From NCBI GenBank assembly GCA_964357605.1, contig CAYHLX010000004.1:1081-65080 (forward strand): a stretch of 64,000 nt of DNA, read 5' to 3'. Source of the DNA: an uncultured Candidatus Saccharibacteria bacterium (GTDB lineage Bacteria > Patescibacteriota > Minisyncoccia > Phycocordibacterales > PALSA-1337). Numbering within the stretch: position 1 is the stretch's first letter; each line of letters starts with the position of its first letter. The notes below the pieces were generated by a model, which did not search any database, was not told the DNA's origin, and saw nothing but the letters and a program-made list of their open reading frames with translations. Below, one piece after another: positions 51,133 through 57,094 of the stretch. The position numbers and the translations under genes are program-made.

Positions 51133-51447
51133 TTAGAGCAATGTAACCTTAAGTTTAGCATCCAGTGCTTTTGCTACGCGCTTCAAAAACTTAATGGAGG
51201 GATTGTAATTCCCTGCCTCTAGGCGAGAGATGACGGATTGGTCACTACCAATCTTTTTGGCGAGCTGTTTTTGGCTCATGTCTTTTTCGATACGTCTGCG
51301 AATGATCGAGAATTCTAATTCGAGAGCATCATAAGCCGCTTTGACTCCAGGTCTTTTCATAACCTCACGAGACCAGTCTTCATAACGAATAAATTTTAAC
51401 TTTGGATTTAATTTTATCATAGGATGATTATATGCTATATAAGTCAT
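51133..51447 (-). CDS. XRE-family HTH antitoxin (HigA-like)
   Basis: C-terminal MSQKQLAKKIGSDQSVISRLEAG HTH. ATGA overlap with the upstream toxin. Confidence 0.65.
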   Translation of the reverse strand: MTYIAYNHPMIKLNPKLKFIRYEDWSREVMKRPGVKAAYDALELEFSIIRRRIEKDMSQKQLAKKIGSDQSVISRLEAGNYNPSIKFLKRVAKALDAKLKVTLL

Positions 51448-51752
51448 ATTTGCAACCACTTATATTTTATTTTTATAAGATCTAATTCCCTTCTTGTTAT
51501 CTTTTCAGTCTTTTTTTCGAATCCGTGAAAAATAATAGCAGCTTCATGCGAGAATATATAGATAAGACGAATATTATGTACTCCGCCAACCCGCAACTCA
51601 AAAATACCCGGCAATATGTTTTTGCTATACGGCATTCTAATATTGTAGCCATATTTTTTTAAGAGATCAAAATATCCTCGACAGCGTCCAACTGCTCCAT
51701 CTCCAAGATTATCCATAAAATTTTGCACTTCCTCCATTACTATTATTTCCAT
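51444..51752 (-). CDS. RelE/ParE-superfamily toxin (HigB / Gp49-like)
   Basis: IRLIYIFSHEAAIIFHGFEKKTEKI. Toxin-first gene order. Confidence 0.6.
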   Translation of the reverse strand: MEIIVMEEVQNFMDNLGDGAVGRCRGYFDLLKKYGYNIRMPYSKNILPGIFELRVGGVHNIRLIYIFSHEAAIIFHGFEKKTEKITRRELDLIKIKYKWLQI

Positions 51753-53749: not shown

Positions 53750-54319
53750 ATGATCGCCAAACTAATAGGAAAAATTGCCCATATAGACCCCAAATACCTG
53801 GTTCTAGATGTTGGCGGGGTTGGATACAAAGTTTCAACCACCTCCGATATTATGACCAAGATAGGCCGTGAGGAGGAGCTGGTAACTCTCTGGACATATC
53901 TCGCTGTCCGTGAAAACGCTTTGGATTTATACGGATTTCTAACCCTCGCCGAGCTCGGTTTCTTTGAGTTACTTATCACCATCTCAGGTATCGGTCCAAA
54001 AACAGCCCTTGGAATACTCAACTCTGCTTCTGTGCATGCCTTAGAAACAGCCGTTCAGACTGGGGACACTTCCCATCTGACCAAGGTTTCGGGTATTGGT
54101 AAAAAGATTGCAGAGAAAATTGTGATGGAATTAAAAGATAAGGTGGAAAAGATGACAGGAACCATAAAAATGAATAATGACGATGGAGATGTTGTAGAGG
54201 CCCTAAAAACCCTGGGTTACAGCCCACAGGAAGATAGGGATGTGATGAAAAAATTACCTAAAGATTTAACCAAAACAGGCGATCGGGTAAAAGCAGCTTT
54301 AAAAATACTTGGAAAATAA
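53750..54319 (+). CDS. ruvA: Holliday junction helicase subunit RuvA
   Basis: MIAKLIGKI...LDVGGVGYKV and the HhH motifs GIGPKTA / SGIGKKIAEKI. Confidence 0.9.
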   Translation: MIAKLIGKIAHIDPKYLVLDVGGVGYKVSTTSDIMTKIGREEELVTLWTYLAVRENALDLYGFLTLAELGFFELLITISGIGPKTALGILNSASVHALETAVQTGDTSHLTKVSGIGKKIAEKIVMELKDKVEKMTGTIKMNNDDGDVVEALKTLGYSPQEDRDVMKKLPKDLTKTGDRVKAALKILGK

Positions 54320-55354
54320 TTAGTCATAAAAAAGCCTTGCTATAGAATCTTTAATTTTCTCACTTTTACAATGAGAGAGCATACCGAGATAAGATTGCAT
54401 TGATTGTTCAAGAAATTCTTTGGTGATTTTTCCTTCTTCGTATGAACATTTTAGTTTTCGTATTTTATTGAGCATCCTTCTCTTGGTTCTCGTCCTCAAA
54501 ACTTTGTGGTGTGGTAAGGATACATAGCCAAGAAAATCCGTCCCTGTGTTCAATTTTCTTATAGTTACCTTATTTGGATGAAGTTCCATCCGAAGATTAT
54601 CTGTTAAAAATGATTGGATTTTTAAAATACACTCTTGTAAAAAGTCTCTGGAGTTATGAACGATAACAAAATCATCACAGTAACGAATATAATATTTCGT
54701 TTTGAGTGTATGTTTGCAAAATTGATCTAGCTCATTGAGATAGATATTTGCGAATACCTGGCTAGTTACATTGCCCAAAGGCAAACCTTTTCCCTGCGTC
54801 ACCTTAAATGAATCTATGATTTTATTAAGAAGATCTAAAAGCTCCTCGTCATGTACCCTCTTTCCCACCAGAGATTTGAGAACTTGGTGATCAATTGAAT
54901 CAAAGAATTTTCTGATATCGCATTTAAGAACAAAAGCTTGCTGTGTATAATTTCTAGAAACCTTTCTTGAAAATTGTTCCAATCTCTCTACTCCCTTGTG
55001 AGTACCTTTGTCATCTCTTGACGCAAAAGAATCATGAATAAAAGTCTTATCAAAAACCTGATATAATGCCTGATACAGAGCTTGGTAAAGGACCCTATCA
55101 CGGACACTCGCTTTGTGAATTTTCCTCAATTTCGGATCTTGGACATAGAATGCCTTGTATGGATCAGGCTTCCACTTACCAATAATTAGTTCGTTGCAAA
55201 GACTAAAAAGATTTTCCTCCAAATTAAACTCAAATTCTGCAACTTCTTTTTTTGATCTTTTTCCTTTTCTAAATCTTTTCCACGCCCGAAACAGATTTTC
55301 AAGACTTATTACATCACAAAAATTCAAACTATGACGCCCCCCCCCCGAACACAC
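54320..55354 (-). CDS. Diversity-generating retroelement reverse transcriptase
   Basis: 344 aa with RT motifs, YCDD box, and the DGR-specific motif-4 signature LGNVTSQVFANIYLNELD. GTG start directly followed by a G10 tract. Confidence 0.85.
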   Translation of the reverse strand: MCSGGGRHSLNFCDVISLENLFRAWKRFRKGKRSKKEVAEFEFNLEENLFSLCNELIIGKWKPDPYKAFYVQDPKLRKIHKASVRDRVLYQALYQALYQVFDKTFIHDSFASRDDKGTHKGVERLEQFSRKVSRNYTQQAFVLKCDIRKFFDSIDHQVLKSLVGKRVHDEELLDLLNKIIDSFKVTQGKGLPLGNVTSQVFANIYLNELDQFCKHTLKTKYYIRYCDDFVIVHNSRDFLQECILKIQSFLTDNLRMELHPNKVTIRKLNTGTDFLGYVSLPHHKVLRTRTKRRMLNKIRKLKCSYEEGKITKEFLEQSMQSYLGMLSHCKSEKIKDSIARLFYD

Positions 55355-55475
55355 CCTCTCTATTATTGAAAAGATTCGCCTGCTTCATGCGGATATTTAT
55401 ATCATAGGACAGAGACTTCCTAAACAGCACAAACTTGGTATTCATCATGATTTAGAGAGAGCAATTGGAAAGATT

Positions 55476-55703
55476 ATGGAATTGACCATAGAAGCTAGAT
55501 TTCTAGTGGCCAAAAATAAGATTAGGGTATTAGAAATTACTCGAATCAAGAATGAAGTATTGAAACACACCATTCGTACAGAATACGAGTTTAAAATTAT
55601 AAATGAAAAGGAATACTTGAGGCTTGCTGGTCAAATTGTAGAAATCTCAAGAATGATTAACGGCTGGATAAGGTACCTAACAGAAAAAAGTCATGTTAGT
55701 TAG
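55476..55703 (+). CDS. Truncated Avd-like four-helix-bundle protein (75 aa), antisense to the RT/TR transcript
   Basis: C-terminus LAGQIVEISRMINGWIRYL resembles the Avd / S23-IVS family C-terminal helix (bAvd ...EVGRILGSWIARV). Confidence 0.4.
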   Translation: MELTIEARFLVAKNKIRVLEITRIKNEVLKHTIRTEYEFKIINEKEYLRLAGQIVEISRMINGWIRYLTEKSHVS

Positions 55704-55728
55704 ACAATGACTTTTTCTGCAAAAACTT

Positions 55729-55841
55729 CCAAGCGAGCCCCGATGTTCGGATTGCAATTGTCACGATAGTTCCAGTTGAAGTTGGCCTGGGCGTTGTTGA
55801 CGTTCCAGTTGCCGTTAGCCACCTTCTTGTCACCAGGCAAC
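55729..55841 (-). repeat. DGR template repeat (TR)
   Basis: 113 bp homologous to 56122..56234. 22 of its 31 minus-strand adenines are substituted in the other copy. Confidence 0.8.
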
Positions 55842-56092
55842 GCACTAGTATCACCTCTTTTCCCTATCACCAAAAATCATTTTCATAATTTTTTGTGTTT
55901 TGTGTATCCATTTGTATTCAATGGCATTGTATAAAAGATGACACGCAGTTTTTATATTATGGCAAATTGCTATTCTCTGTATATAGGGAACCAATTTTAC
56001 AACCACCATCATCAGTATAAATAAAAGAAAAGTGGCGTGCAATATTTCAGCACACCACTTTATTGAATTCCCCAAGCCCAAGGGAAAAAGAG

Positions 56093-56953
56093 TTAGGACT
56101 TGCGAAGGGCAAAGAACTCTACCAAGCGAGCCCCGAGGCTCGGAGAGCAAAGGCCACGAGAGTGCCAGCGGAAATCGGCCTGAGCGCTGTCGACGACCCA
56201 GTAGCCGTGCGCCACCCGCTCGCCACCAGGCAACCGATCATCAGGAAACCATGTGAGCGTTTCCCCAGAATCAAGATGCTCGTCGGTGATTAGGAAGTGG
56301 AGATTATCCGCATCTGACCAACCAAACAGGTTAATCCAGTTCTGATTCTTCTCAACCTTGACTTCGAGGAGTCCGTCCGGCGACTTGGCATTTTTGCCCA
56401 AGGTATCTGCATCAGGCCGAATAGATCGCTTGATGAAACCGAGTTGAGAAATATCTAAACCCCTAGAGTTCTTGTATTTCATCACGTCTGCTTCCTCGTA
56501 AGAGGCGTTCATGCCGAGCTTCATCTTCCAGTCAAGCGCCATCCTATTGGTGGCACCGGCGGGACGAAAAACTGGCATGATGTCGGTCCGGGCCAAGACT
56601 CGGTCATCCATCATGAACATGTCCCGGAAGATGACTGTCTCGCCCGTGAGGAACTTGTGAAGTTTCTCTCGAGCTTCCAGCCATTCTGCGAAGGTCTCGC
56701 CGGTGGCGGTGAGAATGAGTGGTTCGGGAGTTGGGACCTTTGCAGATTCCACGACCTCAACCCTGCTCACCTCTCCTGGAAGGACGAAACCTCGACGCAA
56801 CACTTCCTGCAGTTGAGGCAGGTTTTGTTCGTAGTGTTCCAATTGCTCAATCGTGAGAACTTGAGGCATATTGGAGACCAGTTTTAGGCCGAGGTTAAAT
56901 CCACGCACAATGAGTGCTGGATCCTGTGTTTCAATCAAGGGTATACCTTTCAT
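56093..56953 (-). CDS. DGR target (variable) protein with VR at the C-terminus. GC-rich (about 50%).
   Basis: 286 aa. The last ~38 codons are the VR. C-terminus WSDADN...GYWVVDSAQADFRWH resembles C-type-lectin-fold DGR variable domains (inference). Confidence 0.7.
   Translation of the reverse strand: MKGIPLIETQDPALIVRGFNLGLKLVSNMPQVLTIEQLEHYEQNLPQLQEVLRRGFVLPGEVSRVEVVESAKVPTPEPLILTATGETFAEWLEAREKLHKFLTGETVIFRDMFMMDDRVLARTDIMPVFRPAGATNRMALDWKMKLGMNASYEEADVMKYKNSRGLDISQLGFIKRSIRPDADTLGKNAKSPDGLLEVKVEKNQNWINLFGWSDADNLHFLITDEHLDSGETLTWFPDDRLPGGERVAHGYWVVDSAQADFRWHSRGLCSPSLGARLVEFFALRKS
56122..56234 (-). repeat. DGR variable repeat (VR)
   Basis: 25 mismatches to TR, 22 of them at TR adenine positions. 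The shared 3' end CCAAGCGAGCCCCGA is an IMH-like GC-rich segment. Confidence 0.8.
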
Positions 56954-57094
56954 AGGTGTTTCCTTTCACTTTTCATGACCGACTGCGAGCTTAGACGGTA
57001 GTCGTTTTATTTATTGCCATGAATTCCACCCTAGATATTATCACAAATCTACACATAAGTCAATGGTAATAAAACCCTTGAAATAGGGCATAAT

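What the first reader, a model, noticed from the sequence alone, without database searches (positions are those of the whole stretch)
54320..56953. Complete diversity-generating retroelement: DGR-type RT, 113-bp TR/VR pair with adenine-specific mismatches, VR at the 3' end of a target gene
Seen directly. I aligned TR (55729..55841) and VR (56122..56234) base by base: 113 of 113 positions align without gaps and 25 differ. 22 of the 25 differences fall where TR has T on the + strand, which is A on the - strand, the sense strand of both the RT and the target ORF. 22 of TR's 31 such adenines are changed to G, C or A-complement alternatives, and only 3 differences are at non-A positions. The copies share an identical GC-rich 3' end, CCAAGCGAGCCCCGA, which is IMH-like. 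The VR covers the last ~38 codons of ORF 56093..56953. The RT carries the DGR-diagnostic motif LGNVTSQ..ANIYLNELD, rather than the QG...SP motif of group II intron RTs. Established knowledge: DGRs perform A-to-N mutagenic retrohoming from TR into VR. Inference: this element diversifies the C-terminal ligand-binding surface of the target protein, probably a C-type-lectin-fold domain. DGRs are known in CPR lineages, but this particular target and its layout have not been characterised.
Basis: partly seen in the sequence, partly recalled or inferred. Interest (0 to 1): 0.8.

Follow-up and report, generated by a model that had tools for sequence, protein, structure and literature searches.

The report
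Typical CPR diversity-generating retroelement, recently active
This is a real but ordinary diversity-generating retroelement of the kind already known in candidate-phyla-radiation bacteria, and its one unusual feature is a run of ten C/G bases at the shared start of its two enzyme genes that leaves the accessory gene out of frame and varies in length between near-identical relatives.

Summary
TR (55729-55841) and VR (56122-56234) align without gaps, with 25 differences, 22 of them at TR adenines on the minus strand (P = 2e-13). The repeat extends to 116 nt.

The element is a diversity-generating retroelement (DGR):
- The RT is closest to the Bordetella phage DGR RT.
- The target C-terminus is predicted to have a C-type-lectin fold.
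- A sister-strain allele differs from the window in VR almost only at TR-adenine positions, while the covered part of TR is identical. The element has therefore acted recently.

The layout, TR-(avd)-RT, is the published "B3" architecture typical of CPR DGRs. All 76 RT relatives with upstream sequence share it. This is a new member of a known kind.

One feature is not in the literature I could search. A G/C homopolymer (C10, 55337-55346) lies just inside the 5' end of avd, which overlaps the RT start on the other strand. It is conserved in 59 of 73 non-redundant relatives. It leaves avd one base out of frame here and out of frame in about two thirds of relatives. It differs (G9 versus G10) between elements that are 99.9% identical.

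The parts
54320..55354 (-). DGR reverse transcriptase, 344 aa from GTG 55354. A second GTG at 55352 would be in frame if the homopolymer were 9 nt.
   Evidence: Pfam RVT_1, E = 5e-24. The best solved-structure match is 8ub7, a 328-aa RT, at 146 bits and E = 1e-41, against 83 bits for a group II intron RT. I take 8ub7 to be Bordetella phage bRT because its residue numbering fits the residues named in bioRxiv 10.1101/2023.10.23.563531. Motifs LGNVTSQ (residue 193) and YCDD (residue 225) are present. The database holds it as P0049 on one 65.6-kb NCBI contig.
55337..55346 (.). Homopolymer: C10 on the plus strand, G10 on the RT strand. It lies inside the head-to-head overlap of the avd and RT 5' ends and reads PPP in Avd and GGG in RT.
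   Evidence: It is the only G/C run of 8 or more in the 64-kb window. In relatives there are 59 such runs at this junction against 4 elsewhere in 620 kb. Run length is 7-13 across relatives. It is G9 versus G10 in elements that are 99.9% identical.
55331..55703 (+). avd (accessory variability determinant) on the strand opposite to RT, TR and the target. ATG is at 55331 and ACG follows. After the C10 run the body frame runs from 55347 to the stop at 55701-55703, one base out of frame with the ATG.
   Evidence: The body 55362-55703 matches Pfam bAvd PF22296 at 41.8 bits (cut-off 40). It matches NCBIfam DivGenRetAVD at 53 bits, below the cut-off of 80. The frame was read from the sequence.
55682..55718 (-). 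Terminator-like hairpin 8 nt downstream of TR. The avd stop codon lies in its loop, and a T-run follows it on the TR strand.
   Evidence: Folding of the window sequence. A hairpin of -10 kcal/mol or stronger, with a different stem sequence in each locus, follows TR in 61 of 61 related loci.
55726..55841 (-). Template repeat (TR), 116 nt with 33 adenines. It reads LPGDKKVANGNWNVNNAQANFNWNYRDNCNPNIGARLE.
   Evidence: The sister strain is identical over the covered part, 55768-55841.
55842..56028 (-). AT-rich spacer (34% GC over 55842-56092) between the target terminator and TR. It holds two sigma-70-like matches, 56021>55994 and 55983>55956, which are candidate promoters for the TR RNA.
   Evidence: The region holds no more matches than shuffled sequence, so this is only a placement argument.
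56029..56061 (-). Intrinsic terminator of the target gene: a 12-bp stem followed by a U-run.
   Evidence: z = -4.8 for the 106-nt segment. The syntenic relative L002 has an equivalent hairpin after its target gene (read by eye).
56119..56234 (-). Variable repeat (VR), codons 240-278 of the target.
   Evidence: The sister allele differs at 23 of 116 nt here, against 5 of 745 nt in the rest of the gene.
56093..56953 (-). Target gene, 286 aa. It has an N-terminal helical region (12-54), a low-confidence linker (about 58-66), and a C-type-lectin/FGE-like domain (about 88-286). No hydrophobic segment is present.
57035..57063 (-). Sigma-70-like match (TTGACT, 17 nt, TG-TAATAT) upstream of the target ATG. 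It is a candidate target promoter.
   Evidence: This is a consensus match only.

Best explanation
This is a chromosomal diversity-generating retroelement of the CPR-typical architecture B3: target with VR, terminator, TR, avd on the reverse strand, then RT.

Inferred mechanism, from the Bordetella phage model:
1. A short TR RNA is made from the spacer downstream of the target terminator. It ends at, or folds into, the hairpin just after TR.
2. The RT-Avd complex copies TR into cDNA and misincorporates opposite the 33 template adenines.
3. The cDNA replaces VR. This rewrites up to 19 codons in the C-type-lectin-fold C-terminus of a 286-aa protein that has no signal peptide or membrane segment. 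About 10^19 protein variants are possible.

Shown here: the anatomy, the homologies, the fold, and the fact that two strain alleles carry different adenine-only rewrites of the same TR. Inferred: the RNA boundaries, cis-priming, and the role of Avd.

In the assembled state avd is one base out of frame with its ATG because of the C10 run. Avd supply, and therefore mutagenesis, probably depends on restoring the frame. That could happen by a change in run length to 9, by +1 ribosomal slippage on CCC-C, or by transcriptional slippage.
For: - TR/VR statistics.
- The RT is closest to the bRT structure (146 against 83 bits). In the alignment it keeps the residues that contact template and incoming dNTP in bRT: K29, F66, R74, I76, G182 and Q187 are identical, and I181 is replaced by L. 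The residue list comes from bioRxiv 10.1101/2023.10.23.563531.
- Avd homology.
- C-type-lectin fold of the target.
- The sister allele P0048 (L010-L012) has 23 VR differences. Twenty are at TR-A positions. The other 3 are exactly the window's three non-A mismatches, and there the sister equals TR. The sister VR differs from TR only at adenines (23 of 23). The covered 74 nt of TR are identical. Flanks are about 97% identical.
- Sixty-seven of 85 related loci (including the window and replicate assemblies of one element) have the same VR, TR, (avd), RT layout with A-biased repeats. Avd is on the opposite strand in 76 of 76 loci with upstream sequence.
- B3 is described in PMC5758913.
- The 47 target homologs have conserved scaffold residues and hypervariable positions in the VR pattern.
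Against: - avd has no in-frame start codon as assembled, so the element may currently be unable to make full-length Avd.
- Only two VR alleles were recovered, and no read-level data were available.
- An independent assembly from the same site (L001) has the same VR as the window, so variation within that sample is not shown.
- IMH/IMH* asymmetry cannot be scored.
- The hairpin right after VR is weak (6 bp, not GC-rich).
- In the Taylorbacteria relative with a G7 run, which also leaves avd +1 out of frame, VR is invariant across 4 cluster members and 24 contigs.
Confidence: 0.9

Rival explanations
1. The DGR is real but now dead in this genome. The extra C is an inactivating frameshift in avd, and the VR differences from the sister strain date from before that mutation.
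For: No canonical start codon is in frame with the Avd body before Met39 of the domain. The G7 Taylorbacteria relative, also +1 out of frame, shows no VR variation in 24 contigs. The syntenic relative L002 has lost, or never had, the RT-avd-TR cassette next to its target.
Against: The avd body shows no further decay. It is a full-length open frame with a bAvd match over profile positions 3-106 of 107. The RT and TR are intact. The same out-of-frame state occurs in about 37 of 59 relatives whose avd bodies are all still open and recognisable, which is not expected of independent pseudogenes. The run switches between G9 and G10 in identical haplotypes, so the state looks reversible.
Confidence: 0.15
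2. The C10 length is an assembly or sequencing error at a homopolymer. The true run is C9, avd is intact, and nothing unusual is present.
For: Coverage is low: L001 from the same site is labelled cov_3. Assemblies often break at the run. L062 and L087 begin with GGGG, L023 has an N gap beside it, and L037 begins with a 51-nt poly-C artefact. One base fewer restores the avd ATG frame in the largest group of relatives (33 of 59).
Against: Errors would have to win the consensus in about two thirds of 59 independent genomes. G7, too short to be error-prone, is reproducibly +1 out of frame in four separate assemblies. G10 was recovered in 14 contigs from at least 8 samples and G9 in 3 assemblies of the same element.
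Confidence: 0.2
3. This is not a DGR. It is a group II intron, retron or defence RT next to a chance or ordinary diverged duplication.
For: NCBIfam's best hit is the group II RT/maturase model (157 bits). That is far below its cut-off of 300, and no DGR RT model appeared among the NCBIfam hits.
Against: The adenine bias has P = 2e-13. The RT carries xGxxxSQ rather than QGxxxSP and is closest to bRT. No intron RNA or other Rfam family was found, only tRNAs. Avd is adjacent. The allele differences fall at adenines only.
Confidence: 0.01

Closest known systems
CPR DGRs of architecture B3, TR-(avd)-RT (Wu et al. 2018, Nucleic Acids Res 46:11, PMC5758913; the CPR/DPANN set of Paul et al. 2017, Nat Microbiol 2:17045, which I could not read)
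   Same: The order and strands of target-VR, TR, inverted avd and RT are the same. TR is about 115-130 nt. The host is a chromosomal CPR genome and the target is a small unannotated protein. Seventy-six of 76 relatives with upstream sequence fetched here share the inverted avd.
   Different: Nothing in the core layout differs. The G/C homopolymer at the avd/RT overlap and the terminator-like hairpin after TR are not mentioned in the papers I could read.
Bordetella phage BPP-1 DGR (mtd-avd-TR-brt)
   Same: The RT is homologous, with E = 1e-41 to the bRT structure and conserved template and dNTP contact residues. An Avd four-helix-bundle homolog is present. Mutagenesis is adenine-specific. VR lies in a C-type-lectin fold at the target C-terminus, and AAC codons dominate the template.
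   Different: avd is inverted and placed between TR and RT, so the 140-nt non-coding spacer that supplies the priming adenosine in BPP-1 corresponds here to antisense avd sequence. TR is followed at once by a terminator-like hairpin. The target is a 286-aa protein with no signal peptide or membrane segment, in a housekeeping neighbourhood, not a phage tail fibre. There is no GC-rich cruciform after VR.
DGR variable proteins with solved C-type-lectin folds: Mtd (1yu0), TvpA (2y3c), TaqVP (5vf4)
Homopolymer (poly-G/poly-C) contingency loci of Neisseria, Campylobacter and Haemophilus (phase variation by slipped-strand mispairing)
   Same: A G/C run of 7-13 nt sits within the first codons of an ORF. 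Its length differs by one base between otherwise identical haplotypes and puts the gene in or out of frame.
   Different: The gene controlled is part of a mutagenesis machine, not a surface antigen or restriction-modification gene. The run is shared by two overlapping divergent ORFs. No read-level or expression evidence exists. The resemblance rests on my own knowledge of those systems plus the titles retrieved.

Membership tests
Diversity-generating retroelement | RT belongs to the DGR RT clade | tested here: met
   The best PDB match is the bRT structure 8ub7 at 146 bits, against 83 or fewer for group II, retron and DRT RTs. bRT residues K29, F66, R74, I76, G182 and Q187 are kept, and I181 is replaced by L (alignment; residue list). 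No full phylogeny was built.
Diversity-generating retroelement | RT motif [I/L/V]GxxxSQ in place of the QGxxxSP of group II intron RTs | tested here: met
   LGNVTSQ is at residues 193-199. The statement about the motif rests on my knowledge of the DGR literature.
Diversity-generating retroelement | TR/VR repeat whose differences are confined to TR adenines | tested here: met
   22 of 25 mismatches (23 of 26 over 116 nt) are at A, P = 2e-13. The sister allele has 23 of 23 at A.
Diversity-generating retroelement | VR lies inside a protein-coding target, and template adenines sit at codon positions 1 and 2 (AAY codons) | tested here: met
   VR covers codons 240-278 of 286. Adenines number 14 at position 1, 18 at position 2 and 1 at position 3. 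Eleven codons are AAC or AAT.
Diversity-generating retroelement | VR varies between individuals at TR-A positions while TR stays constant | tested here: met
   In the window against L010-L012, 20 of 23 VR differences are at TR-A positions. TR has 0 differences in the 74 nt covered. The rest of the gene has 5 differences in 745 nt. Only two alleles were seen.
Diversity-generating retroelement | Accessory protein Avd encoded in the cassette | tested here: inconclusive
   Homology is met: Pfam bAvd 41.8 bits against a cut-off of 40. NCBIfam DivGenRetAVD scores 53 bits, below its cut-off of 80. However, the ORF is one base out of frame with its only upstream ATG.
Diversity-generating retroelement | IMH at the VR end differs from IMH* at the TR end, with a GC-rich inverted repeat after IMH | tested here: inconclusive
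   The last 15 nt are identical but contain no adenines, and the copies diverge directly after them. Only a weak 6-bp hairpin follows VR. Wu et al. report the inverted repeat in only 34% of DGRs.
Diversity-generating retroelement | Adenine-mutagenised cDNA synthesis and retrohoming | not testable with these tools
   This needs biochemistry or deep sequencing of VR.
DGR architecture B3 (Wu et al. 2018) | Core order TR, avd on the reverse strand, RT | tested here: met
   TR is 55841>55726 (minus), avd 55331>55703 (plus), RT 55354>54320 (minus). The definition is in PMC5758913, Figure 5 legend.
C-type-lectin-fold DGR variable proteins | C-type-lectin/FGE-like fold carrying VR in its C-terminal strands | tested here: met
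Homopolymer phase-variable (contingency) gene | G/C run of about 8 or more inside the 5' coding region, so that length sets the reading frame | tested here: met
   C10 at 55337-55346 lies 6 nt after the avd ATG, and the body is in the +1 frame.
Homopolymer phase-variable (contingency) gene | Run length differs between otherwise identical genomes or within a population | tested here: inconclusive
   This is met in a relative: G9 (L019, L101, L102) against G10 (L093-L100) at 99.9% identity, and L098 and L102 differ only there. It is implied by N-termini in four more RT clusters. It was not tested for the window's own strain, because no second assembly covers the run.
Homopolymer phase-variable (contingency) gene | Reversible ON/OFF expression of the product | not testable with these tools
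   This needs reads, transcripts or protein data.

The most novel reading that the evidence does not exclude
In B3-type CPR DGRs, the G/C homopolymer of 7-13 nt sits just inside the 5' end of avd, and in the closest relatives also inside the overlapping RT start. I propose that it is a conserved switch that gates hypermutation. Slipped-strand length changes, or +1 ribosomal or transcriptional slippage on the run, would decide whether full-length Avd is made. The diversifier would then be on only in a fraction of cells or transcripts. The window would be in the avd-off (C10) state. With C9, the avd ATG and an RT GTG at 55352 would both be in frame.
Probability: 0.4. Interest if true: 0.7.

Novelty: new member of a known kind. 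Interest (0 to 1): 0.4.

Why it matters
The DGR itself adds one more well-documented example. It has a two-allele natural experiment showing recent adenine-only rewriting, and it adds an unannotated C-type-lectin-fold target family (170 representatives at 50% identity) to the catalogue of CPR DGRs. This changes nothing conceptually.

The homopolymer is the part worth a specialist's time. If it is a real switch, it would be a simple, testable answer to how cells restrain a retroelement that can rewrite a gene about 10^19 ways. It would also explain why avd is so often mis-called or truncated in CPR genome annotations.

Tried and rejected
- I looked for a second VR for this TR in the window, using a pattern with every A replaced by N and up to 12 substitutions allowed. 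None was found.
- Rfam at gathering thresholds found only six tRNAs in the window.
- Exact-protein look-ups of the RT (344 aa) and the 75-aa avd fragment found nothing. No second assembly of this strain covers the homopolymer.
- I tried to show that the RT reading frame is preserved through the run while the avd frame is not. Start codons upstream of the run are equally available in all three phases (37, 35 and 38 of 59). The test has no power, and I dropped that argument.
- RNAalifold on a MAFFT alignment of the region after TR predicted no pairs, because the hairpins are not aligned by sequence. Folding each locus on its own showed the hairpin.
- I searched for a TR-3'-end to downstream duplex analogous to the BPP-1 template:primer duplex. 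The energies were not better than shuffles (z from +1.4 to -2.4).
- Paul et al. 2017 is not held, and the AlphaFold database library was unavailable.
- A group II intron or retron reading was considered and rejected.
Full report
**Observation.** TR (55729-55841) and VR (56122-56234) align over 113 positions without gaps. On the minus strand there are 25 mismatches: 22 at TR adenines (10 to G, 8 to C, 4 to T), 2 at C and 1 at T. The hypergeometric probability of that concentration is 2.3e-13. The repeat finder extends the pair to 116 nt, 55726-55841 and 56119-56234, which adds one more A-to-T difference. TR adenines lie at codon positions 1 and 2 (14 and 18, with 1 at position 3). Eleven codons are AAC or AAT. 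A-to-N rewriting could give about 10^19 protein variants, and only the two AAG codons can become stops. No other copy exists in the window.

**The genes.**
- ORF 54320-55354 (minus strand) is an RVT_1 reverse transcriptase. Against all solved structures its best match is 8ub7 (146 bits, E = 1e-41), well ahead of group II intron RTs (83 bits), retron RTs and DRTs.
- I take 8ub7 to be the Bordetella phage DGR RT because its numbering reproduces the residues named in the cryo-EM preprint 10.1101/2023.10.23.563531. In the alignment the window RT keeps K29, F66, R74, I76, G182 and Q187, has L for I181, and has YCDD at the catalytic site.
- No DGR RT model appeared among the NCBIfam hits. Its best hit, the group II maturase model, is far below cut-off.
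On the plus strand, 55362-55703 matches Pfam bAvd above its gathering score. It matches NCBIfam DivGenRetAVD below its cut-off.
- The target ORF 56093-56953 (minus strand) has no Pfam, NCBIfam or PDB sequence match.

**The target.**
- A word-indexed search found 47 homologs, all from CPR (Parcubacteria-type) metagenomes and all unnamed.
- Their alignment shows a conserved core from about residue 80. The C-terminus has fixed scaffold residues (LP.G..VA.G.W......A.F.W.....C.P..GAR) that alternate with hypervariable columns, which is the VR pattern.
- An exhaustive profile search found only 170 representatives at 50% identity among 1.84 billion, so the family is small.
- The protein has no hydrophobic segment.

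**Evidence of activity.**
- The 90% cluster of the target holds a second member, P0048. It is 94% identical overall. It has 3 conservative changes in the first 240 residues and 14 changes in the 38 VR codons.
- Its contigs (L010-L012, three SRA runs) are about 97% identical to the window in the flanks.
- Base by base, 23 differences fall in the 116-nt VR and 5 in the other 745 nt of the gene. Twenty of the 23 are at TR-adenine positions.
- The other three are exactly the window's three non-A mismatches, and there the sister allele equals TR.
- The 74 nt of TR covered by L010 are identical. The sister VR differs from TR at 23 positions, all adenines.
- So at least one retrohoming event has happened since these strains split. 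The window's three non-A mismatches are private point changes.
- L001, another assembly from the Hainich groundwater site, carries the window's allele.

**Architecture and comparison.**
- The order on the minus strand is target with VR, a strong terminator (56029-56061), an AT-rich spacer, TR, a hairpin (55682-55718), avd on the other strand, and RT.
- Wu et al. 2018 (PMC5758913) define exactly this as architecture B3, TR-(avd)-RT. They report it in 90% of their CPR set and almost nowhere else.
- I fetched 80 loci encoding RT relatives from species-representative genomes. Nearly all are Patescibacteria, and at least 580 candidates were confirmed in total. The protein database holds more than 7,600 relatives at E below 1e-60.
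- With an Avd HMM built here, all 76 loci that have upstream sequence carry avd head-to-head with the RT on the opposite strand.
- Sixty-seven of 85 loci (a set that includes the window and replicate assemblies of one element) have an A-biased TR/VR pair in the same order and spacing.
- The neighbourhood is housekeeping: ruvA, rpsT, a Mur ligase, an amidase and fpg (Pfam families in the syntenic L002). Nothing phage-like was seen in the neighbouring genes. The window's DGR is therefore a standard chromosomal member of a very large known group.

**The unexpected feature.**
- The Avd body frame has no start codon. Its ATG (55331) is followed by ACG and then by ten C (55337-55346). The body (GAA at 55347 onward) is one base out of frame.
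- The RT start (GTG 55354) lies on the other side of the same run, so the two ORFs overlap head to head across it. The run reads PPP in Avd and GGG in the RT.
- This run is not a local accident. A G run of 7-13 nt sits at the same place in 59 of 73 non-redundant relatives with upstream sequence.
- Runs of 8 or more occur 59 times at the junction and 4 times elsewhere in 620 kb of these AT-rich loci. The run is the only one in the 64-kb window.
- The avd ATG beyond the run is in frame in 20-22 of 59 relatives, one base too far in 27, and two bases too far in 10. One base fewer restores an ATG for avd in 33 loci, and for both genes in 20, against 11 as assembled and 11 with two fewer.
- L025, which lacks the run, shows the underlying design: the RT ATG, then 24 nt, then the antisense of the avd ATG.

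**Is the run length real?**
- Within 90%-identity RT clusters, N-termini differ in ways that require one base more or less in the run.
- For one Rifle-aquifer element I checked the DNA. Three assemblies have G9 (L019, L101, L102). Eight fetched loci have G10, and in all 14 contigs carry that RT form (P0184). Identity is otherwise 99.9% over 3-4 kb. L098 and L102 share all three SNPs relative to L101 and differ only in the run.
- With G9, gene callers give a 120-aa Avd that overlaps the RT ATG. With G10 they give a 73-aa fragment.
- A G7 run, too short to be error-prone, is reproducibly +1 out of frame in four assemblies of a Taylorbacteria element. That element's VR is invariant in 24 contigs.
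- Some contigs end or have gaps at the run.
- I read this as a site that truly varies in length. I cannot rule out assembly error for the window itself, whose own strain has no second assembly across the run.
- Three mechanisms would restore Avd: DNA slippage to C9 (when an RT GTG at 55352 is also in frame), +1 ribosomal slippage on CCC-C before the CGA codon, or transcriptional slippage. The last two rest on my general knowledge, not on a test.
- I found no paper linking DGRs to homopolymers, phase variation or frameshifting. Paul et al. 2017 could not be read.

**Other anatomy.**
- In all 61 related loci examined, TR is followed within about 10-35 nt by a stable hairpin whose stem sequence differs from locus to locus. 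By eye, a T-run on the TR strand usually follows. In the window the avd stop codon sits in its loop. This suggests that the TR RNA is a short transcript of its own, unlike BPP-1, where a 140-nt spacer runs on to brt.
- A search for a template:primer-like duplex gave nothing significant.
- The 15-nt identical GC-rich end has no adenines, so IMH/IMH* asymmetry cannot be judged.

**Verdict.** The finding is correct and its interpretation is supported. It describes a new member of a well-known kind, so the DGR itself rates low to moderate interest. The conserved, length-variable homopolymer at the avd/RT overlap is the only part that may be new. It needs read-level data to settle.

Noticed in passing
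window 55337-55346; L013-L092 at the RT 5' end; L093-L102: A G/C homopolymer of 7-13 nt is conserved at the head-to-head overlap of avd and RT in B3-type CPR DGRs. It is present in 59 of 73 non-redundant loci. It leaves avd out of frame in about two thirds of them. It is G9 versus G10 in elements that are 99.9% identical.
   Followed up: yes
L002 6001-7496 (GCA_964416985.1) against window 53750-56953: A syntenic relative has flanking proteins 69-81% identical to the window's. It carries the target homolog (62% identical) between the Mur ligase and ruvA. Only 75 nt lie between the target stop and the ruvA stop, with no TR, avd or RT there. Its VR region still looks like an adenine-rewritten copy of a near-identical TR.
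   Followed up: partly
window 55726-56953 against 54320-55703: The target gene outside VR (50.5% GC) and TR (53%) are much more GC-rich than the RT (35%), avd (34%) and the window as a whole (39.7%). Target homologs stay at about 50-52% GC in hosts of 43-49% GC. This is unexplained. It could reflect family composition or transfer.
   Followed up: partly
window 55682-55718; 61 related loci, 10-35 nt after TR: Every locus examined has a stable hairpin right after TR, with a different stem sequence in each. By eye, most are followed by a T-run on the TR strand. It looks like a terminator or structural element of a short TR RNA. A conserved motif GAAGTTTCTC lies between TR and the hairpin.
   Followed up: partly
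L005 4603-8798: There is a tandem duplication of a two-gene module: a 234- or 243-aa protein plus a 276- or 265-aa target homolog (P0015, P0008). No TR-like A-biased repeat was found in the fetched locus. No RVT_1 gene was called within 8 kb upstream or about 5.6 kb downstream.
   Followed up: partly
L010-L012 ends (window 55768, 55794, 55914); starts of L037, L062, L087; L023: Short-read contigs of these elements tend to end inside or next to TR, or at the homopolymer. L037 starts with 51 C, L062 and L087 start with GGGG, and L023 has an N gap beside the run. DGR cassettes of this type are therefore often split in assemblies.
   Followed up: no
L006-L009 and the cluster of P0041: A Taylorbacteria DGR with a G7 run (avd +1 out of frame) has a VR that is identical in 4 cluster members and 24 contigs from many Rifle samples, although its TR and VR differ at 14 adenines. 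It appears quiescent.
   Followed up: partly
window 51133-51752 (minus strand): Two overlapping small ORFs of 102 and 108 aa. By eye, the second resembles a helix-turn-helix regulator. L002 has an HTH_3 gene at a comparable position. This may be a toxin-antitoxin pair.
   Followed up: no
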